A stretch of DNA of 63,977 nucleotides, filler included, from an uncultured Myxococcia bacterium (GCA_964617105.1; 16 parts of 16 records of this genome joined end to end with filler, not necessarily neighbours in it), one strand, 5' to 3'. Numbered from the whole stretch's first letter, positions 1,693 to 59,824 are shown. The notes: generated by a model not told the origin, from the letters alone. Made by a program: numbers and translations.

Positions 1693-4034
1693 ATGTCAAA
1701 CGGACAAGAACTATTTAAAACCGCACATTTTAATCAGGCTCTTTTGTTCTGGTTTACTTCATTAAAAGAAGATGCCCTGGATTGGGAGATACAGGATGAA
1801 TTGGATTGGGCATTTGAACAGTTGTTCACCATGGATATTGACCGGGATATCAGAGAGAATTTGTCCAAAAAAATAGCCTCCATGCAAAAACTTTTTGGTC
1901 TGGAAGCAGTAGATAAAATCGATATTAAGGATAATAATTTTCATTTAACCAATCCTTTTTGCGCAACTATTCTTGATCATTTTATTTATCTAAGCGATGA
2001 ATACAGCCATAAAATTGTTAAAGTTAATATGCAGGGTGATCTTATTTGGGAGATAGGAGCCCAGTCTCCCCAAAAAGTAGATCTTTTCTATCCTCAGGGT
2101 TTGGCCATTGGTGAATTTAAAAAAGGAGAAGACCACCTGTACTGTTGTGATCTTTGGAACCACTGTATAAAAATATTTTCCCTGGACGGTCAAATGGTTT
2201 ATCAATTTGGCCAATACGGCAGTCAACCGGGAGAATTTAACGAACCCTATGATCTTTCCATCCGGCAAGATAAATTGCTTGTAGCAGATCGATGCAATCA
2301 CCGGATTCAACAATTTGATCTGCAAGGCAATTTTAAGGATTCTTCCGGCCAACGGTGGATAGAGGAAACCGAAGCCCAAAAAAAAGAGCGGTTCTGGCAG
2401 AGGTTTTCTTCATTAACACCTGGTAATTTATCCTTTCAATCCTTTGCGGCAAAACTTCCTATCCATAATAACAGTCTTATCTTTCCTGCAGGAATAACTT
2501 TTGTTGGCAATAATTTAATGGTTACTGACCGTCATAGACGACTATGGCTGGAACCTAACAACCATTACAATTTCTTAAAAGATGAGACCAATAATAACTC
2601 TCAGTCTCCCCGTAATCTTTTTGAAATTTCCAATAGAGTGGCAGTTTATGACGAAATATATAGTCATTTTTTACTTTATGGAGATGGCGGAGATTTTCAA
2701 TTTAAAGTTAAAAAGAATTCTGACAGCAGTCTTATTTTCCCATTAACCGGTAAAAGTGCGGAACAAAACTGTCTGGTTTCTTATAATGTTCAACAAAAAT
2801 CTTTTACCTTAATTAAATTTAAACACAAAACTCCCTCAATTACTGAACTGGAGCAGGCTTTGTCGGTGGTATCTTTTTCTAAAGATATCAGCATGGCCAA
2901 TAATTATTTAACCGATATCATAGAACCGATAAACTTTTATAATCCCAATTTTTGCCAAAATATTCTCTCTCTGTCTCTATCTGGTGCTGAGAACAATGAC
3001 TGCAACGGCCCAGCATTCCTGACCTGGCTGAAAACCTGGGAACAGTTAGAAACAAAGCCGGAAAATCCATCTCCCTTTTTCAGCAGAACTGTAGAAACAG
3101 GCTCTTTCCTGCACTATGATATTGAAGACAAATTGACTGACCTTTTTTCAAAGTTTGATTCATCTATTGATCCTTTGGCTTCCCATGAGGCGGCCAAGTT
3201 CTCTAAAGTTATCAATCAGGATAGTATAACCGATCTGGATAGAACCGAAATAATTGCCTGTACACCTCTTCATTTCGAATTGGAAAAAATCAAAATTGAA
3301 CTTTTCCGGTTTTTGAATTCATTTATAAATAAATTCAAAACCTGGACAAGAGCCTATAATATTGCCAAGTTTTACCAATTGAACTCATGCGGGAAACTTA
3401 TTTTAACTGCCATGCTGAAAAACTGCAGCGCAGTTATCCATCACTATCAATCTCTGTTTATCAATAAAGTTATANNNNNNNNNNGGTTTTTTTACTACCG
3501 CCGCTTTTCATAAACCTGTAATCGATTTTAATAATTGCCACCGTCCTGAAGAATTAATCAAAGTCTATTACTGGCACTGTCTCTTCAGAGATCTATATAG
3601 ACCTGCCATAATCAACAATCTTTTTTTAGAGATCTTTGCCGGTACAGAGATGCTTACCTCTCCAATTGATAATATTAAACCGGGGCGTGAACTTTTTGAA
3701 CCAGATAATTTTTATCATAAGTTCTATCTATGGTCCAAAATTCACCATATGCCTCTATTGGGCCCTCTTTTTTCAGACTTTGAGAACGGCAATCTGGATT
3801 GGGATAACAGCCTGGTTGTCAATAATTTGCTTTTTGAACTTATCTCATTGCCGAATATGGAACCTTTGGATTTTCTAAAGGGTTATTCCCAATTTATCAG
3901 TAACATCCAGACTTTTGACCTCGCTGATTTTACCCAACAGTTAAAAGACTTTAGAGCCCAAATGGAAATATCTTTCCAGCCTAGGTTATCTTTTGTCAAT
4001 CTATCTACTCTTTTAACCGATTTTTTTTCCAAAA
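1693..4034 (+). CDS. Large NHL-repeat (beta-propeller) protein, 3' partial, spanning a 10-N gap
   Basis: NHL repeats LFYPQGLAI..CCDLWNHCIKIF and FNEPYDL..VADRCNHRIQQF. After the gap at 3475-3484 a frame is open from 3485 through ORF 3650 to the contig end, so both ORFs are probably one gene. Confidence 0.65.
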
Positions 4035-44670: not shown

Positions 44671-44798
44671 NNNNNNNNNNNNNNNNNNNNNNNNNNNNNN
44701 NNNNNNNNNNNNNNTTAATTAATTAANNNNNNNNNNNNNNNNNNNNNNNNNNNNNNNNNNNNNNNNNNNNAATATGTGAATGTGAATGTGTTCCGATT

Positions 44799-45104
44799 TT
44801 ATGACCCATATCTAATAATTTTTTCGCCACAAATACCCTTTATCCCTAACACAGAAATTCCACAATGGGAGGCAGGATATCGATTTTCTCCCCCAAATAT
44901 TGCTGAAAGTTTGGTATATGATTCCCGGCCAAATTGCCCCATTGCGCCAATGTGGGCAAAACCGCCGGCATTTTGTCTCGAATTCCGGTTGATAGCAAAT
45001 TTATCATCAACTTGTTTTGATAACTCTATCGCCGTTTCCATCTCTTTTACAGATATTTTTTTATCTTCCTGTAGTGGTAATAGTTTCACTTTGACTCTTG
45101 TCAT
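44799..45104 (-). CDS. Putative RiPP precursor B (101 aa)
   Basis: Leader resembles precursor A (MxR[IV]K[IV]..EMxxA[LI]); NRYPASHCGISVLG matches A's NGYPQGNCGISIFG; AGGAG upstream. Confidence 0.7.
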   Translation of the reverse strand: MTRVKVKLLPLQEDKKISVKEMETAIELSKQVDDKFAINRNSRQNAGGFAHIGAMGQFGRESYTKLSAIFGGENRYPASHCGISVLGIKGICGEKIIRYGS

Positions 45105-45153
45105 TATAATACATTGCTCCTTTTCTCCACTGCCCTTATGGTCTTATTGATCT

Positions 45154-45221
45154 ATGGGTCTGTTGGACTCATGGGTCTGTTGGACTCATGGGTCTGTTGG
45201 ATTCATGGGTCTGTTGGATAG
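45154..45221. repeat. 17-bp tandem repeat x4, plus one degenerate copy at ~45138
   Basis: ATGGGTCTGTTGGAYTC-like units at 45154, 45171, 45188, 45205. Confidence 0.95.
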
Positions 45222-45248
45222 CGACCATCCCGGGTAAGGCAAATGATT

Positions 45249-46676
45249 TTATCCTTTATCACTTTTCCAATACTCCTCTACAAGGGCCTTGTTAACAAAG
45301 GAGACATCACACAATTTTTGGGTCTGTTTATAAAGATTGCCCTGGTTTTCATTAAAATTACGGGCAAAACACATAGAACAAAACTGGAAAGCTTTACATT
45401 TAAGACAATCGGGAAAATCGGACCATCGAATAGCGCGAAGATGTTGTAACTTGTCAGATTTATGCCAAAGATCTTGTAAAGATACCTCCTGGGCATTGCC
45501 TAAATTATAACCGATAAAACCAGAACAGGGATAGTAATTTCCGTAGGCCGACAAACAAATACAATCAATTCCTATGCCACATACCGGTTTATCAGCAAAA
45601 ATATGAGAGGGAATATCCTTTTTATTTGATTCAACCGATTTTAAATAGTGATCACCATAAGAGAGCATCTCCCCAATTACCGCCTCAATATCATCAATAT
45701 CTAAAGAGTGCTGCAGGTTATCGGTTTCAAAATTTATTCTCCCCAACATGATAAAATCGGTTACCGCCTTAATATTTCGTTTAGCGGCCCACTGGAGAAC
45801 ACTTTGATAAGAGTGCCGATTTTGTTTCATTATTGGGCAACTTATATACAATTGGATGTGGGCCTGTTGCAATTTTTCAATAGTTAGCAACATCTTTTGT
45901 AACGAACCATCAACGGCAGTTATGCTATCATGAACTTTATCTTCTAAACTAAAAATAGACATTTGGACCGTATTGACATTGATCTCCTTTAGAAGTTCAA
46001 TATGCTCATCGGTGATTACTGTTCCATTGGTTTGGATGGTTATGGTAAGATCCTGTTCTCTGGCTTTATAGAGAATTTTATCGATATCTTTGTGTAGAAA
46101 GGGTTCTCCGCCGGAAATGGTGAGAGAGAGAGTCCCCATTTCTGGAAGTTGGTCAAGAACCTCAAAGGCGAGTTTTGTATCCAGTTCAACCAGTTCTCTG
46201 TTTGGAGGATAGTAGCAGTGGAGACAGTGATGGTTACACAGGGTGGTAAGATCCATTTGCATTGCAAATACTGTTGGATTTTGGGCAAAATAGGCGGCAA
46301 AATATCTCGCTGAATCTATTGGCACCCCAGAGGGTTTCTCCGATAGGGGTTTAATAGGGGTAGAATATATATTGGCCTGGCGTGCCTCTAACTCCTGCTT
46401 CGATTTTCCAGTAACAATAAACTTTTCTGTTTTTAGAATAGTTACCAGTTTTAGAAAGTTTTTCTCCACTTGGTGTTCTGGGCAATTTTTTAGCCTCAAT
46501 TTTAGTTGTGAAAGGATAGAGTCGATAGTTTGCGGTTGTCTGGTAATGGGCTTAAGGTAGACTAACTCTTTTTGATCAAATAGGTGATCAAGCCTGGTTG
46601 TTTGATTCACCAAATAGCCAAATTTTTGGTAAAATCGTATAAAGGAGTCATTCCCTAATTGGATTAGTTTCATCAA
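45249..46676 (-). CDS. Radical SAM/SPASM peptide maturase 2 with probable N-terminal RRE (PqqD-like)
   Basis: CNHHCLHC, SGGEP, QTNG; SPASM CGIG..YYPC..CLKC....CSMC..C; ~100-aa N-terminal extension. Confidence 0.88.
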   Translation of the reverse strand: MMKLIQLGNDSFIRFYQKFGYLVNQTTRLDHLFDQKELVYLKPITRQPQTIDSILSQLKLRLKNCPEHQVEKNFLKLVTILKTEKFIVTGKSKQELEARQANIYSTPIKPLSEKPSGVPIDSARYFAAYFAQNPTVFAMQMDLTTLCNHHCLHCYYPPNRELVELDTKLAFEVLDQLPEMGTLSLTISGGEPFLHKDIDKILYKAREQDLTITIQTNGTVITDEHIELLKEINVNTVQMSIFSLEDKVHDSITAVDGSLQKMLLTIEKLQQAHIQLYISCPIMKQNRHSYQSVLQWAAKRNIKAVTDFIMLGRINFETDNLQHSLDIDDIEAVIGEMLSYGDHYLKSVESNKKDIPSHIFADKPVCGIGIDCICLSAYGNYYPCSGFIGYNLGNAQEVSLQDLWHKSDKLQHLRAIRWSDFPDCLKCKAFQFCSMCFARNFNENQGNLYKQTQKLCDVSFVNKALVEEYWKSDKG

Positions 46677-46695
46677 TTATTATTTAGCACCATTA

Positions 46696-48216
46696 TTATA
46701 ATGATATAGGACCTTTTGAAGATTTCATTAATTTAGTAAATGCATCGGGGCCCATGCCGCCGATTTTAGCATTTAGATAGAGGTATGCTTTCACCTCTTC
46801 TTTGGTTCGCTCACATTGTATGGCGATGGGTTCATCTTCTTTTCCATAGGCAGCCAAGCTACGGGCAATACAGCAACCGCCACATGAAAAGCGAACCCAA
46901 CAATCTTGGCATTTGGGTTGATTGAAAACATTTGATGTAACCAGGCTTTGAATCGGTTCCCAATTGGATATTTGGCCATCCTTCACATCACCAATGCAGT
47001 ATTGATCTTCATTAAAGTAGACGCAAGGAAAGATGCGGCCATCCGATTGAAATGCCAGTTGGGTAAGTCCCAGGACACAGCGGCATAATTTTCTTTTCCC
47101 AACTTTACGAAAGTTCATTTCGGTCAAAAACAGGCTGTCCATTTGGGGAATTACACCACTATTTGCCTGGTCAATAATGTTGTCTACCTCTTCAGAAAGT
47201 TCTTTTTTATATTGCGAAATGGTATCAAGGGAGAGAACTTCGTTGTGCTTTCCGCCAATATAACCAGAGAAAAAGTTATAAAATACAATGATCTCTTTAA
47301 AACCAAATTCTCTAAAAAATTCAAAGGTATCCTTCATGCTAGCGCCAGGATCAGCCAATACTGCTCTGGCTCCGATCCGGCCCGGCAGAGCCTTAAGCAT
47401 TCTTTTGATATTTTTAACAATAATAGCATGAGAAGGTTTGCCATTTTGAAAATGCCGATAGGCATCATGGCTCTCAGCTTTGCCGTCGATACTAACCATT
47501 ATTTCGAAATTATATTCTTTAGATAGTTTTTCTATCTCATGGTTCCACAAGGTCCCATTAGTATCAATTAGATATTCAAACTCCAGACCTTTCTGCTCTC
47601 CACGCTGGGCAGCATATTGGGCAAAAGTTTTGAGCCCTTTTAAGTTTAAAAAGGGCTCTCCACCGTAAACAATAATTTTATGTTTTTTTTGTGTGCCGCT
47701 GTTGTTGACAATAAAATCAACCACCCCTTTAAGATGCTCTGGAGTAGGCTCAAGAGGATTTTCTTCGCCTAACAATCCCCCCTCGTTCCAGCAATAACTA
47801 CAGCTCAAATTGCACCTTCGGGCAAAGTAGACAAAATACTCTTTGTGACTGTTTTTCTGGGCTTCGATGAGTTTCGGAAGGTCCTTGACATCTTCTGCCA
47901 TCGCCTTGAAAAGTTGTTGATCTTGTATCATATTCTGAATACTCGCCTGAATGGCATCATCCAAGGCGAGTAGACGGGTATAGGCCTGATTGATTTCTTC
48001 GAGTCGGTAACGGCTGTAGCACTCAGGGTTAATGTTAATAGTATTGCCAGTTTGATTGAGAAACTGGTCAACTAAAAAGGCGGTTACTGGATATAACTCT
48101 ACCCCCTTTCCATTGGAAATAATATAAAGAAAGGAGGTATCCTTATATTCAAGTAGGCGCACATTTTCCCTGGTCAGATAAGCAGGCCTGTTCAAAACAA
48201 CTGGATTAGATGTCAT
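46696..48216 (-). CDS. Radical SAM/SPASM peptide maturase 1 (CteB/QhpD/anSME-like) with probable N-terminal RRE
   Basis: CNLSCSYC, YGGEP, TNG, SIDG; SPASM CRCVLG..FPC..CQDCWVRFSCGGCC..C. Confidence 0.9.
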   Translation of the reverse strand: MTSNPVVLNRPAYLTRENVRLLEYKDTSFLYIISNGKGVELYPVTAFLVDQFLNQTGNTININPECYSRYRLEEINQAYTRLLALDDAIQASIQNMIQDQQLFKAMAEDVKDLPKLIEAQKNSHKEYFVYFARRCNLSCSYCWNEGGLLGEENPLEPTPEHLKGVVDFIVNNSGTQKKHKIIVYGGEPFLNLKGLKTFAQYAAQRGEQKGLEFEYLIDTNGTLWNHEIEKLSKEYNFEIMVSIDGKAESHDAYRHFQNGKPSHAIIVKNIKRMLKALPGRIGARAVLADPGASMKDTFEFFREFGFKEIIVFYNFFSGYIGGKHNEVLSLDTISQYKKELSEEVDNIIDQANSGVIPQMDSLFLTEMNFRKVGKRKLCRCVLGLTQLAFQSDGRIFPCVYFNEDQYCIGDVKDGQISNWEPIQSLVTSNVFNQPKCQDCWVRFSCGGCCIARSLAAYGKEDEPIAIQCERTKEEVKAYLYLNAKIGGMGPDAFTKLMKSSKGPISL

Positions 48217-48260
48217 ATAGAGTTATACCTTAATCATAAGTTCCTTCAATTACAAGCACT

Positions 48261-48572
48261 TTAATCACAAGCACCTTCTGGCGCACTGTGACTACAAGAG
48301 GGGGCCATTCGTCCGCCACCACCATGTCGACCTACAGCGTTTTGAATATTGCCCCAGGAACCAACCTGTCTACCGCCATCACCGCCACCACCAAAGATAC
48401 TAATACCGCAATTTCCCTGGGGATAGCCGTTAAATCTGCTGTTAGGATCCCTTCTAGACCCCCGTCCACGACCTCGTCCACGGTTGAACCGGAATCCTCC
48501 CAGAGCATTACGCATCTCTTCTTCGGTAACTTCATGATTCTCGGTTAAGTCGGTAATTTTAATTCTAGCCAT
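48261..48572 (-). CDS. Putative RiPP precursor A (103 aa) with double-glycine leader
   Basis: MARIKITDLTENHEVTEEEMRNALGG leader, then a Gly/Arg-rich core with 3 Cys; 44 nt upstream of maturase 1. Confidence 0.85.
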   Translation of the reverse strand: MARIKITDLTENHEVTEEEMRNALGGFRFNRGRGRGRGSRRDPNSRFNGYPQGNCGISIFGGGGDGGRQVGSWGNIQNAVGRHGGGGRMAPSCSHSAPEGACD

Positions 48573-48679
48573 TTTGATCNNNNNNNNNNNNNNNNNNNNN
48601 NNNNNNNNNNNNNNNNNNNNNNNTTAATTAATTAANNNNNNNNNNNNNNNNNNNNNNNNNNNNNNNNNNNNNNNNNNNN

Positions 48680-58438: not shown

Positions 58439-59824
58439 TCAATTTCTCATGCTGGTCAAAGGGGCAGGAATGCGGCCTTTGATATTGATGAACGGAGAGC
58501 AATCCTTTTGGCTCACCGCCATAACCGGTGCTTCACCCAGCAAACCTCCATAGTCCACTGACTGGCCCACGCTTTTACCAATAATAGGAATTATTCTTAC
58601 AGCGGTAGTCTTGTTATTTACCACCCCAATCGATATCTCATCTGCTAAAATTGCTGAAACTGTAGTGGCCGGCGTATCTCCCGGGATAGCCACCATGTCC
58701 AGTCCCACCGAACATACAGCAGTCATAGCCTCCAATTTCTCCAGACTCAGGCTTTTATTCTTTACCGCCTCGATCATCCCCCCGTCTTCACTTACCGGTA
58801 TAAAAGCACCGCTTAGACCACCGATATGAGATGAAGCCATAGCCCCACCCTTTTTAACCGCGTCGGTTAAAAGAGAGAGAGCAGCGGTGGTGCCAGGAAT
58901 TCCCACCGATTCCAATCCCATTGCTTCCAGGATATTGGCAACACTGTCACCCACCGCAGGAGTTGGCGCCAGGGACAGGTCAACTATACCGAAACGCACC
59001 GGCGCTCCCAATCTTCTGGCCACCTCTCGACCAATAAGTTCACCGGCCCTGGTTATTTTGAAAGCCATCCGTTTTATCACCCCCACCAAATCACTGAAAG
59101 TAAAGTCGGGATTATATTTTTTCATACGGTTTATCGCGGAGAGCACTACCCCCGGTCCACTGACTCCAACATTGATTACACATTCCGATTCCCCCACGCC
59201 GTGGTTGGCTCCGGCAATAAATGGATTATCTTCGGGCATGTTGGCAAAACACACCAGTCGGGCACAACCTATCGAACCCCGGTCAGCGGTTTTATTGGCC
59301 ACCCTCTTAATAACCTCTCCCATAATTCGGACAGCGTCCATGTTGATGCCGGCAAGGGTGGAGGCCAGGTTTACCGAAGCACAAACCCGTTCGGTTATAG
59401 GTAAAACCTCTGCAATAGAGTGGATCAGTTTCAAATCACCCGGAGTAAATCCTTTATGCACCAGGGCTGAAAAGCCTCCGATATAATCAACTTTGATATC
59501 TTTCGCCGCCTTATCCAAAGCCAATCCAATAGGAGTATAATCATCGGTAAGACAACTTTCGGCCACAATCGCCACCGGAGTAACGGCCACCCTTTTATTA
59601 ACTATAGGGATAGCAAACTCCTCCTCCACTTCAGTAGCGCAGGAGAGTAACCGGCTGCCGTAATTAGTTATCTTATTATATATAAGTTCCGCAGTTTGAT
59701 TTACATCCCTGGAGGCGGTATCCCGCAAAGAGATTCCCATGGTCACGGTGCGGATATCGAGATTCTCTGACTCGATCATACGTAAAGTTTGAGTTACTTC
59801 ATCTTCGGCCCAATACATCCTCAC
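58439..59824 (-). CDS. DUF711/UPF0210 (PFL-like) protein
   Basis: [52 protein letters not shown]. Confidence 0.93.

What the first reader, a model, noticed from the sequence alone, without database searches (positions are those of the whole stretch)
44844..44885. Shared core motif N-x-Y-P-x-x-x-C-G-I-S-[IV]-[FL]-G in both small peptides
Seen: B has NRYPASHCGISVLG (44844-44885) and A has NGYPQGNCGISIFG (48390-48431), while the rest of the cores are dissimilar. Both also carry a late G-x-C (KGICG, EGACD) and similar N-termini (MTRVKV..ISVKEMETAI vs MARIKI..VTEEEMRNAL). In B the motif starts one residue after IFGG, a possible second cleavage site giving a 29-aa core. Inference: YPxxxC marks the modified site, for example a Cys thioether or a Tyr-involving macrocycle. 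This also shows that an ORF that looks like a hypothetical protein is probably a real precursor.
Basis: partly seen in the sequence, partly recalled or inferred. Interest (0 to 1): 0.85.

Follow-up and report, generated by a model that had tools for sequence, protein, structure and literature searches.

The report
Conserved CGIS peptide motif, radical-SAM cluster
Two small genes flanking a pair of radical-SAM enzyme genes share a short cysteine-containing motif that recurs in a handful of related gene clusters elsewhere, so they most likely encode precursors of a rare, undescribed family of enzyme-modified, secreted peptides.

Summary
The motif is real and sits at the stated coordinates. It scores above 5000 of 5000 shuffles. 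The window is a chain of unlinked ~4-kb contigs. The finding lies on contig 44771-48579, which holds only four genes, all on the minus strand: A, rSAM1, rSAM2, B.

An exhaustive profile search of 1.84 billion proteins found five B-like peptides, one rSAM2-like enzyme with a B-like core fused to its end, and one peptide matching only A's tail. In the B type the conserved part is a ~40-residue block, G-[GA]-F...[YF]-P-x3-C-G-I-S-[IV]-L-G, often ending the protein.

One Kiritimatiellota MAG carries the same module: an A-like peptide with repeated ...NCGISIFGGGG units, an rSAM2 orthologue (52% identity), a RiPP C-methyltransferase and a B-like peptide. A C39-peptidase ABC exporter, HlyD and TolC lie within 5 kb.

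No Pfam or NCBIfam model and no searchable paper covers the peptides.

Best reading: a new, rare two-precursor radical-SAM RiPP family. rSAM2 acts at the motif, most likely cross-linking the invariant Cys; this chemistry is inferred, not shown.

The parts
48261..48572 (-). Precursor A, 103 aa. Residues 1-26 are a double-glycine-type leader ending ...NALGG. A divergent copy of the core block, a Gly-rich spacer and a C-terminal module follow.
   Evidence: ORF. The leader is shared with P0017 (BLASTP E = 3e-15) and with the A-like peptide of L001. The start codon lies 7 nt from the contig end.
48390..48500 (-). A residues 25-61: GGF...GR.S...F..YPQGNCGISIFG, a divergent copy of the B-type block.
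   Evidence: Alignments. Coordinates.
48264..48356 (-). A residues 73-103: a second core module, ...GGGGRMAPSCSHSAPEGACD. It is shared with P0017 and absent from the B type and from L001's A-like peptide. Candidate substrate of rSAM1.
   Evidence: The pairing with rSAM1 is inference from co-presence here and co-absence in L001/G001.
46696..48216 (-). rSAM1, 506 aa radical SAM/SPASM enzyme. It is closest to the thioether-forming maturase families (nif11-peptide maturase, PapB, SCIFF maturase, QhpD) but scores below every curated cut-off.
   Evidence: NCBIfam 198.1, 192.4, 161.5 and 144.1 bits against cut-offs of 518.7, 340, 425 and 453. Pfam Radical_SAM and SPASM pass. CX3CX2C at residue 135 plus SPASM cysteines. 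Closest solved structure is 5wgg, E = 2.1e-30. Nearest relative is P0003 at 36% identity.
45249..46676 (-). rSAM2, 475 aa radical SAM/SPASM enzyme with a ~135-aa N-terminal domain (possible RiPP recognition element). It is the one enzyme kept wherever a CGIS peptide can be seen in context.
   Evidence: Pfam Radical_SAM 93.8 bits and SPASM 30.9 bits. CX3CX2C at 147 and CX2CX5CX2C at 424. Every NCBIfam hit is far below its cut-off; the best is 116.5 against 500. 52% identity to the L001 orthologue and 46% to P0013. For the N-terminal part, the nearest Atlas clusters are PqqD, score 0.90, a lead only.
45154..45218 (.). 17-nt tandem repeat, 3.8 copies, in the 144-nt spacer between rSAM2 and B.
   Evidence: TRF score 123. 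Function unknown.
44799..45104 (-). Precursor B, 101 aa. Residues ~1-26 are a leader of the same type as A's. A variable linker, the core block and a 14-residue non-conserved tail follow.
   Evidence: ORF. Relatives. The C-terminal tail after ...RYG differs in another assembly (P0010).
44844..44966 (-). B residues 47-87: the conserved core block GGFAHIGAMGQFGRESYTKLSAIFGGENRYPASHCGISVLG.
   Evidence: Invariant in 7 of 7 B-type sequences: F49 H51 G53 G59 R60 S62 K65 A68 F70 P77 C81 G82 I83 S84 L86 G87.

Best explanation
The shared motif is the most conserved part of the core of a rare, unnamed family of ribosomally made, radical-SAM-modified peptides (RiPPs). The family comes as two co-encoded precursor types with one leader type (M-x-[RK]-[IV]-K-[IV]...[IV]-[ST]-x-x-E-[LM]-x-x-A).
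- B type: a variable linker, then a ~40-residue block from G-[GA]-F to [YF]-P-x3-C-G-I-S-[IV]-L-G, at or near the C-terminus.
- A type: a GG leader, then one or more Gly-rich units Y-x3-N-C-G-I-S-I-F-G-G-G-G.

Proposed mechanism:
1. The SPASM enzyme rSAM2 binds the leader through its N-terminal domain.
2. It modifies the motif. Most likely it joins the invariant Cys sulfur to a carbon of a nearby residue (a thioether), as sactipeptide and ranthipeptide maturases do.
3. A second, exchangeable radical SAM enzyme adds lineage-specific modifications. Here that is the PapB/SCIFF-like rSAM1, probably acting on A's extra tail ...RMAPSCSHSAPEGACD. In the Kiritimatiellota locus it is a TIGR03975 C-methyltransferase.
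4. The leader is removed at G-[GA] by a C39-peptidase ABC exporter, and the product is secreted.

Shown: motif conservation, gene linkage, enzyme families, and the exporter in one relative. Inferred: which enzyme acts where, the thioether chemistry, the cleavage site, and export in the window's own organism.

The confidence of 0.6 is for the family and the rSAM2-acts-at-the-motif reading as a whole. For the thioether step alone I would say about 0.45.
For: - Chance excluded: 0 of 5000 shuffles reach the motif score.
- Family: a profile search of 1,835,955,588 proteins gave 9 hits at E <= 0.001. They are the two queries, five B-like peptides (P0011, P0012, P0014-P0016), P0013 and P0017. C-G-I-S is invariant in all 10 motif copies tabulated.
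- Linkage to rSAM2, first case: L001 has, in order, an A-like peptide, an rSAM2 orthologue (52% identity), TIGR03975 (567.5 bits against a 281.85 cut-off) and a B-like peptide.
- Linkage to rSAM2, second case: P0013 is an rSAM2 homologue (46% identity) with the core block attached about 12 residues after its end and no leader.
- Specificity: in G001, 3 of 4 matches to the back-translated motif lie in this locus and the fourth is off-frame inside a large ORF. The reversed-pattern control gave 0 matches.
- Repeats: the L001 A-like peptide repeats the unit through a 57-nt tandem duplication, as iteratively modified cores do.
- Enzymes: both have CX3CX2C plus full SPASM cysteine sets.
- Wider clade: full-length homologues of rSAM2 occur in 22 of 401 genomes searched in G001's phylum. 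In 19 of 20 fetched loci they sit beside short Cys-rich peptides (3-5 Cys) with an aromatic residue 4 positions before an invariant Cys.
- Export: the only C39 peptidase domain in the 6.2-Mb genome G001 lies within 5 kb of the A-like gene. It is part of a peptide cleavage/export ABC transporter (TIGR01193, 530.5 against 523.85) with HlyD and TolC beside it.
- Mechanistic precedent: a review describes Cys activation on an auxiliary Fe-S cluster for thioether-forming radical SAM enzymes (PMC9389541, passages read).
Against: - No modification has been observed, and no RNA or peptide data exist for this locus.
- rSAM2 scores about equally against thioether formers (SkfB, AlbA, StsB) and C-C formers or other enzymes (SuiB, WgkB, PqqE, MftC, AhbD/NirJ). 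All scores are far below the cut-offs, so the chemistry cannot be read from homology.
- The motif fits neither known acceptor pattern: NxxcB's Asn three residues before Cys, nor PapB's Cys-Asp/Glu pairing (abstract listing).
- Genomic context is known for only two loci, plus one fused protein whose DNA I could not see. A sequencing error could have created that fusion.
- The N-terminal domain of rSAM2 has no Pfam PqqD hit even at E <= 10, and the AlphaFold model was poor (pLDDT 48.8).
- The three CGIS-linked enzymes group together with only moderate support (73/46; 72% of bootstrap trees).
- The window contig holds no exporter, and tblastn of the L001/L011 exporter proteins found none on the window's other contigs.
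Confidence: 0.6

Rival explanations
1. The family and the rSAM2 pairing are the same, but the chemistry does not use the Cys sulfur as the cross-linking atom. Options are a C-C or C-O cross-link from the aromatic residue five positions before the Cys (cyclophane- or streptide-like), epimerisation of the Ile/Val residues, or another radical reaction. The Cys would then serve only to anchor the substrate on an auxiliary cluster.
For: - rSAM2 scores as well against C-C-forming enzymes (SuiB 49.7 bits, PqqE 37.2 bits; WgkB and MftC) as against thioether formers.
- An aromatic residue (Y, or F in P0016) is kept five residues before the Cys in all 10 copies. One is kept four residues before the invariant Cys in the 19 sibling precursors.
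Against: - The Cys is the only invariant reactive side chain shared by the A and B types.
- The sibling precursors are Cys-rich (3-5 Cys), as thioether peptides usually are.
- Cyclophane-type enzymes act on aromatic-x-x triplets. The residues after the aromatic vary here (P-G-S, P-A-S, P-Q-G, G-G-S).
Confidence: 0.2
2. The motif is a docking or recognition element (or a structural turn) for an enzyme or the exporter. The modified residues would lie elsewhere: in the first half of the B block, or in A's C-terminal module.
For: - In A the block is degenerate except for the motif, and A carries a second, separately conserved module.
- High conservation is more typical of recognition sequences than of RiPP cores.
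Against: - A separate conserved leader already exists in every member.
- P0013 keeps the block but has no leader.
- L001's A-like peptide consists of little other than repeated units.
- P0014-P0016 end 0-1 residue after the motif's final glycine.
Confidence: 0.1
3. The peptides are not secreted natural products. They would be precursors of an intracellular peptide-derived cofactor or small modified protein subunits, in the manner of PqqA, MftA or QhpC.
For: - The core is unusually conserved between a ~40% GC marine contig and a 62% GC Kiritimatiellota MAG.
- The motif lies at the C-terminus.
- An enzyme-core fusion exists (P0013).
- rSAM2 has weak similarity to MftC and PqqE.
Against: - The distribution is patchy: 1 of 401 genomes of the phylum searched and 1 clear locus from a motif scan of 185,579 species genomes.
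- Leaders are of the GG type.
- The exporter set lies beside the L001 locus.
- No oxidoreductase or other cofactor-using gene was seen in the L001 flanks that I scanned.
- All cofactor-maturase models score far below their cut-offs.
Confidence: 0.07
4. The similarity is chance and ORF B is a non-coding open frame.
For: - B has no Pfam or NCBIfam match.
- An overlapping 124-aa ORF exists on the plus strand.
- Word-based searches found only the peptides themselves.
Against: - The shuffle test excludes chance.
- Six related sequences were found at E <= 4.9e-07 in 1.84 billion proteins.
- B is 38% identical to P0018, E = 6e-17, with the same synteny.
Confidence: 0.01

Closest known systems
Thuricin CD (TrnA/TrnB precursors with TrnC/TrnD radical SAM enzymes), a two-component sactibiotic
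   Same: Two precursor genes and two radical SAM/SPASM genes sit in one small cluster. The thuricin enzymes act together on both precursors and install Cys thioethers (abstract of PMC12093266).
   Different: - There is no detectable sequence relationship to named sactipeptide maturases at family level: AlbA 76.7 against 850, SkfB 66.6 against 300, StsB 72.8 against 625.
- Each unit here has a single Cys rather than a Cys ladder.
- In the one relative with context the second enzyme is a C-methyltransferase, not a second SPASM enzyme. The two enzymes are therefore probably not an obligate pair.
Ranthipeptides (PapB/freyrasin, SCIFF maturases, NxxcB)
   Same: - rSAM1's best family matches are PapB, the SCIFF maturase and the nif11-peptide maturase.
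- Repeated short Cys-containing units, as in L001's A-like peptide, are the substrate style of NxxcB and PapB.
- The Cys is thought to be activated on an auxiliary cluster (PMC9389541).
   Different: - All scores are below the cut-offs, for example 192.4 against 340 for PapB.
- The motif has no Asn at -3 and no Asp/Glu partner.
- The enzyme actually linked to the motif is rSAM2, which belongs to a different, unnamed SPASM clade.
Double-glycine-leader peptides exported by C39-peptidase ABC transporters (NHLP/Nif11-type and bacteriocin systems)
   Same: A's leader ends in GG. B-type sequences have G-[GA] before the block. The L001 locus has a TIGR01193-class exporter with two cNMP-binding domains, plus HlyD and TolC.
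   Different: The precursors have no NHLP or Nif11 domain (0 Pfam hits). The exporter scores below the NHLP-specific cut-off (TIGR03796 559.1 against 853.3). No exporter is visible on the window's short contig.
Sibling clade of rSAM2: peptides M-x-Y-K-K-P-x-V-V-A-K...[YF]-[VA]-A-G-C-P... with single or tandem SPASM enzymes
   Same: The enzymes are full-length homologues of rSAM2 (31-42% identity, N-terminal domain included). The precursors are short, with an aromatic residue a few positions before an invariant Cys.
   Different: The leader and the core differ, with 3-5 Cys and no C-G-I-S. This clade too has no NCBIfam model and no hit in the searchable papers, so it gives no known chemistry to transfer.

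Membership tests
Radical SAM / SPASM superfamily (both enzymes) | CX3CX2C cluster motif, and Pfam Radical_SAM (PF04055) and SPASM (PF13186) scores above the gathering thresholds | tested here: met
   rSAM2: 93.8 against 29.5 and 30.9 against 21.5. rSAM1: 50.0 against 29.5 and 22.0 against 21.5. Cysteine motifs.
PapB-family ranthipeptide maturase (NF047865) | Score at or above the curated cut-off of 340 bits | tested here: not met
   rSAM1 192.4 bits and rSAM2 70 bits.
nif11-like peptide radical SAM maturase (TIGR04064) with a Nif11-type precursor | Enzyme score at or above 518.7 bits, and a precursor carrying a Nif11 leader domain | tested here: not met
   rSAM1 198.1 bits. A, B and 5 relatives have 0 Pfam families.
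Sactipeptide maturases (AlbA NF012164, SkfB TIGR04403, StsB NF045574) | Score at or above the curated cut-offs of 850, 300 and 625 bits | tested here: not met
   rSAM2 76.7, 66.6 and 72.8 bits.
Sactipeptide/ranthipeptide class (defined by chemistry) | A Cys sulfur-to-carbon thioether installed by the radical SAM enzyme | not testable with these tools
   This needs MS/MS or NMR of the modified peptide.
Mycofactocin / PQQ type peptide-derived cofactors | MftC (cut-off 265) or PqqE (cut-off 381.35) equivalog score, and the companion genes | tested here: not met
   rSAM2 78.8 and 77.7 bits. None of the L001 flank ORFs that I scanned gave such a hit.
RiPP with RRE-dependent leader recognition | A PqqD-like recognition element in a biosynthetic protein | tested here: inconclusive
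   No Pfam hit for the N-terminal domains of rSAM2, rSAM1 or the L001 orthologue at E <= 10. The Atlas's nearest clusters for rSAM2 residues 1-135 are PqqD, score 0.90 with 146 shared features, a lead only. The AlphaFold model is poor.
Double-glycine leader / C39-peptidase ABC exporter substrates | A GG-type site at the end of the leader | tested here: met
   A has ...NALGG and L001's A-like peptide has ...AICGG. G-[GA]-F occurs in 8 of 9 sequences.
Double-glycine leader / C39-peptidase ABC exporter substrates | A linked C39-peptidase ABC transporter | tested here: inconclusive
   Present beside the L001 locus (TIGR01193 530.5 against 523.85). Not on the 3.8-kb window contig and not found on the window's other contigs.

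The most novel reading that the evidence does not exclude
This may be a previously unrecognised class of two-component secreted RiPPs. Both components would carry the same radical-SAM-installed cross-link at an aromatic-x4-Cys-Gly-Ile-Ser unit. The link type would be absent from the current sacti/ranthi/cyclophane catalogue, for example a Cys-to-aromatic or a Cys-to-adjacent-backbone link. It would be made by an unnamed SPASM clade that also occurs naturally fused to its own substrate.
Probability: 0.2. Interest if true: 0.75.

Novelty: new variant of a known kind. Interest (0 to 1): 0.55.

Why it matters
Radical SAM RiPPs are a main source of new peptide cross-link chemistry and of narrow-spectrum antimicrobials and signals.

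This work defines a small, clean family that can be tested directly:
- one invariant unit, C-G-I-S preceded by an aromatic residue;
- one dedicated enzyme clade with no curated model;
- two precursor types;
- a repeat-bearing variant and a natural enzyme-core fusion. If genuine, the fusion shows that the block needs no leader to reach the enzyme.

The family also brings to light a larger, unannotated sibling clade with Cys-rich precursors in the Kiritimatiellota MAG's phylum. Co-expression plus mass spectrometry would settle the chemistry.

The public annotations seen are 'hypothetical protein' for the Kiritimatiellota B-like peptide and 'radical SAM protein' for its enzyme. Annotation pipelines therefore miss these precursors.

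Tried and rejected
- Own genome: none is held for this window.
- Word-based protein searches with A, and with the A+B alignment, found only the two peptides themselves: 1 of 68 and 2 of 107 candidates.
- rSAM1 in genome contigs: 14 pattern matches, none confirmed.
- A+B alignment in metagenome contigs: 592 pattern matches, none confirmed. The tool chose leader patterns.
- B-family alignment in metagenome contigs: 45 matches, none confirmed. In viral contigs: 136 matches, none confirmed.
- L002 (Paenibacillus) is a chance match in another frame of a 576-aa ORF that reads like an FAD-dependent dehydrogenase (my reading of the sequence, no family search run). Rejected.
- L007 is an off-frame chance match to the DNA pattern. 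Rejected.
- Complex prediction of rSAM2 with B: no verdict, scores 0.03 and 0.02 against a mark of 0.32. It counts neither for nor against binding.
- AlphaFold of rSAM2 with a 3-row alignment: pLDDT 48.8. AlphaFold of B with 7 rows: pLDDT 46.4. Both are too poor for fold searches, so none were run.
- Protein Atlas for B: only TPR-like chance neighbours, about 110 shared features.
- PDB profile search with the B family: best E = 0.16, ESAT-6, taken as chance.
- Sequencing runs: 8 DNA holders from 2 studies labelled marine or seawater metagenomes, and no RNA holder listed.
- Laying the contigs of 4 runs showed no variants, and no listed piece covered 44771-44805.
- Papers: the motif strings occur in 3 unrelated papers only. 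An earlier, noisier search was also uninformative.
The radical SAM RiPP compendium PMC10288494 (seen as a search listing only) may list this clade in its supplements.

Full report
**1. What is at the coordinates**

The window is not one piece of genome. N runs of 44 bases flanking TTAATTAATTAA recur every ~4 kb, so it is a chain of short contigs. The finding lies on contig 44771-48579 (3809 bp).

On the minus strand that contig holds only the following, in order:
- ORF A, 48572-48261, 103 aa
- rSAM1, 48216-46696, 506 aa
- rSAM2, 46676-45249, 475 aa
- a 144-nt spacer containing a 17-nt repeat in 3.8 copies
- ORF B, 45104-44799, 101 aa

Genes outside these limits are unlinked and were not used as context.

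They share 8 of 14 identities and a BLOSUM62 sum of 50. Of 5000 shuffles of both peptides, 9 reach the identity count and none reaches the score. BLASTP gives E = 0.001 for the single comparison. In all six frames of the window, C-G-I-S occurs only in these two ORFs.

**2. The enzymes**

Both pass Pfam Radical_SAM and SPASM. Both carry CX3CX2C plus a full set of SPASM cysteines.
- rSAM1 is nearest to thioether-forming peptide maturases: nif11-peptide maturase 198.1 bits, PapB 192.4, SCIFF maturase 161.5, QhpD 144.1. All are below their curated cut-offs. Its nearest solved structure is 5wgg at E = 2.1e-30. Its closest relative among 5.8 billion proteins is 36% identical (P0003).
- rSAM2 matches AhbD, NirJ2, GeoRSP, ScmE, MftC, PqqE, AlbA and StsB at 70-117 bits each, against cut-offs of 265-850. 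Among solved structures it matches SkfB, 5v1q, PqqE and 5wgg.
- Neither enzyme belongs to a named family.

**3. Relatives of the peptides**

Word-based searches found nothing but the peptides themselves. An exhaustive HMMER search of 1.84 billion representatives, using a profile of A plus B, found 9 proteins at E <= 0.001:
- the two queries
- five peptides of 78-98 aa (P0011, P0012, P0014, P0015, P0016; E = 8.8e-15 to 4.9e-07)
- P0013, a 481-aa protein
- P0017, 75 aa

The five peptides and B align over a leader (M-x-K-[IV]-K-[IV]...[IV]-[ST]-x-x-E-[LM]-x-x-A), a variable linker and a ~40-residue block. In 7 of 7 B-type sequences the invariant positions are F49, H51, G53, G59, R60, S62, K65, A68, F70, P77, C81, G82, I83, S84, L86 and G87, in B numbering. 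Three members end 0-1 residue after the motif's final glycine.

A aligns to the same block from G-G-F to the final G, but it keeps only about a dozen positions.

P0017 matches A's leader and A's last ~30 residues (...GGGRMAPSC[ST]HSAPEGA...) and lacks the middle part (E = 3e-15). A therefore looks like a P0017-type precursor carrying an inserted, degenerate B-type block.

None of the peptides matches Pfam (0 of 7 tested) or NCBIfam (0 of the 9 peptides tested). A profile search of the PDB also found nothing.

**4. Genomic linkage**

P0013 is an rSAM2 homologue (46% identity). About 12 residues after the point where rSAM2 ends, it continues into a complete core block without a leader.

A motif scan of 185,579 species genomes gave 32 pattern matches. 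Two passed tblastn. One of them, L002, is a chance hit inside a large unrelated ORF.

The other, L001, is a 208-kb contig of a Kiritimatiellota MAG. It encodes, in this order and on one strand:
- a 72-aa A-like peptide, MARIKITDLAEDTTVSADEMKAICGG followed by GISIFGGGG and two ASYGGSNCGISIFGGGG units made by a 57-nt tandem duplication
- an rSAM2 orthologue, 52% identity
- a TIGR03975 RiPP radical SAM C-methyltransferase, 567.5 bits against a cut-off of 281.85
- a B-like peptide, P0018, 38% identical to B, E = 6e-17

That genome has no rSAM1 orthologue; the best match is 25% identity. Its A-like peptide also lacks A's C-terminal module. This co-absence is the only evidence, from one locus against one, that pairs rSAM1 with that module.

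In the same genome the back-translated motif occurs 4 times. Three are in this locus and one is off-frame in a large ORF. The reversed-pattern control gave 0.

The genome's only C39 peptidase domain lies within 5 kb of the A-like gene. It is part of a 1045-aa protein with two cNMP-binding domains and ABC transporter domains, which passes TIGR01193 (530.5 against 523.85). An HlyD adaptor follows it, and a TolC-family gene faces it.

**5. Distribution**

The B-type profile matched 1 of 401 genomes sampled from that phylum. The family is rare and patchy.

rSAM2 itself has full-length homologues (31-42% identity, N-terminal domain included) in 22 of those 401 genomes, often as tandem pairs. I fetched 20 such loci. 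Nineteen carry an adjacent 33-53-aa peptide of the form M-x-Y-K-K-P-x-V-V-A-K...[YF]-[VA]-A-G-C-P... with 3-5 Cys: 18 were found by regex and L017 by eye. The twentieth locus is cut by its contig end.

These sibling peptides also lack NCBIfam models (0 of 5 tested), and their strings are absent from the searchable papers.

I built a maximum-likelihood tree of 34 rows: 3 CGIS-linked enzymes, 30 sibling segments and rSAM1 as outgroup. Only tblastn segments spanning at least 380 query residues were kept. The three CGIS-linked enzymes group together with moderate support (73/46; 72% of bootstrap trees), next to L017's enzyme and outside the main sibling clade.

**6. Reading**

Shown:
- a conserved peptide family with an invariant C-G-I-S unit
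- two precursor types with one leader type, co-encoded in both loci whose context is visible
- one enzyme clade (rSAM2) always linked to the unit, once by fusion
- a variable second radical SAM enzyme
- a peptide cleavage/export system beside the locus in the one long contig

Inferred:
- rSAM2 modifies the unit.
- The Cys is the cross-linking atom. I put about even odds on a thioether, by analogy with SPASM maturases that activate Cys on an auxiliary cluster (PMC9389541, passages read).
- rSAM1 acts on A's C-terminal module.
- Cleavage occurs after G-[GA], directly before the F that opens the block (8 of 9 sequences).
- The window's organism also exports the products.

Three points argue that the block is substrate rather than docking site: the repeated units in L001's A-like peptide, the leaderless fusion in P0013, and the members that end at the motif.

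Phe replaces Tyr in P0016, and Gly replaces Pro in the A-like units.

**7. Comparison with known systems**

By architecture the closest system is thuricin CD: two precursors, two radical SAM enzymes, thioethers (abstract of PMC12093266). By substrate style it resembles ranthipeptide systems with repeated short Cys units, such as NxxcB and PapB.

Every family-level membership test failed on score. The motif fits neither known acceptor pattern. I therefore file this as a new variant within radical-SAM RiPPs, not as a member of any named class.

**8. Limits**
- No expression or product data exist. The sequencing-run search listed no RNA holder.
- The complex prediction gave no verdict, and both AlphaFold models were poor.
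- The recognition-element status of rSAM2's N-terminal domain rests on a weak Atlas lead against a blank in Pfam.
- B's last residues are uncertain. Another assembly gives a different tail after ...RYG (P0010), and the run contigs listed (8 more were not shown) stop at 44806.

Noticed in passing
whole window; e.g. 44671-44770 and 48580-48679: The window is a concatenation of about 16 contigs of ~3.8-4 kb, joined by N44-TTAATTAATTAA-N44 linkers. Two further N10 gaps lie at 3475 and 15505. Gene neighbourhood across these joints is meaningless.
   Followed up: yes
window 45154-45218: A 17-nt unit (ATGGGTCTGTTGGACTC on the plus strand) is repeated 3.8 times in the spacer between rSAM2 and ORF B. 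Summed contig depth is about double there in the laid runs. It could be a regulatory element or an assembly-prone repeat.
   Followed up: partly
window 44771-44806: B's C-terminus differs between assemblies: ...RYGS here and ...RYGVNHSTQF in P0010. The listed run contigs stop at 44806, and the contig ends in an (ATGTGA)2.8 repeat. The last ~35 nt may be an assembly breakpoint.
   Followed up: partly
P0013 (481 aa, from a 3902-bp metagenome contig): This rSAM2-type enzyme continues in frame into a complete, leaderless CGIS core block. It is either a natural enzyme-substrate fusion or a sequencing error. Its DNA could not be fetched.
   Followed up: partly
L001:6055-6191: A near-exact 57-nt tandem duplication (2.2-2.5 copies) creates the repeated ASYGGSNCGISIFGGGG units of the A-like peptide, which suggests recent unit expansion.
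   Followed up: yes
L011:3574-6711: The peptide cleavage/export ABC transporter beside the Kiritimatiellota locus carries two N-terminal cyclic-nucleotide-binding domains. This hints that export may be gated by a cyclic nucleotide.
   Followed up: no
L017-L036 (20 loci from 19 genomes of G001's phylum): A sizeable unannotated sibling RiPP family: rSAM2-like SPASM enzymes, often in tandem pairs, sit next to peptides M-x-Y-K-K-P-x-V-V-A-K...[YF]-[VA]-A-G-C-P... with 3-5 Cys. Some loci hold two such peptides (L024, L027).
   Followed up: partly
L017:2962-3216 and L025:2996-3253: An ~85-aa protein with three C-x-x-C-G-S-x3-G-x-G-C-P-Y repeats lies near the rSAM2-like genes in two sibling loci. The L017 copy has no NCBIfam match; the L025 copy was not tested. 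It could be a further substrate or a small metal-binding protein.
   Followed up: no
window 59734-59754 (+): The only other [YF]-P-x3-C-G match in the six-frame scan. It lies on an unlinked contig, has no C-G-I-S and is taken as chance.
   Followed up: no
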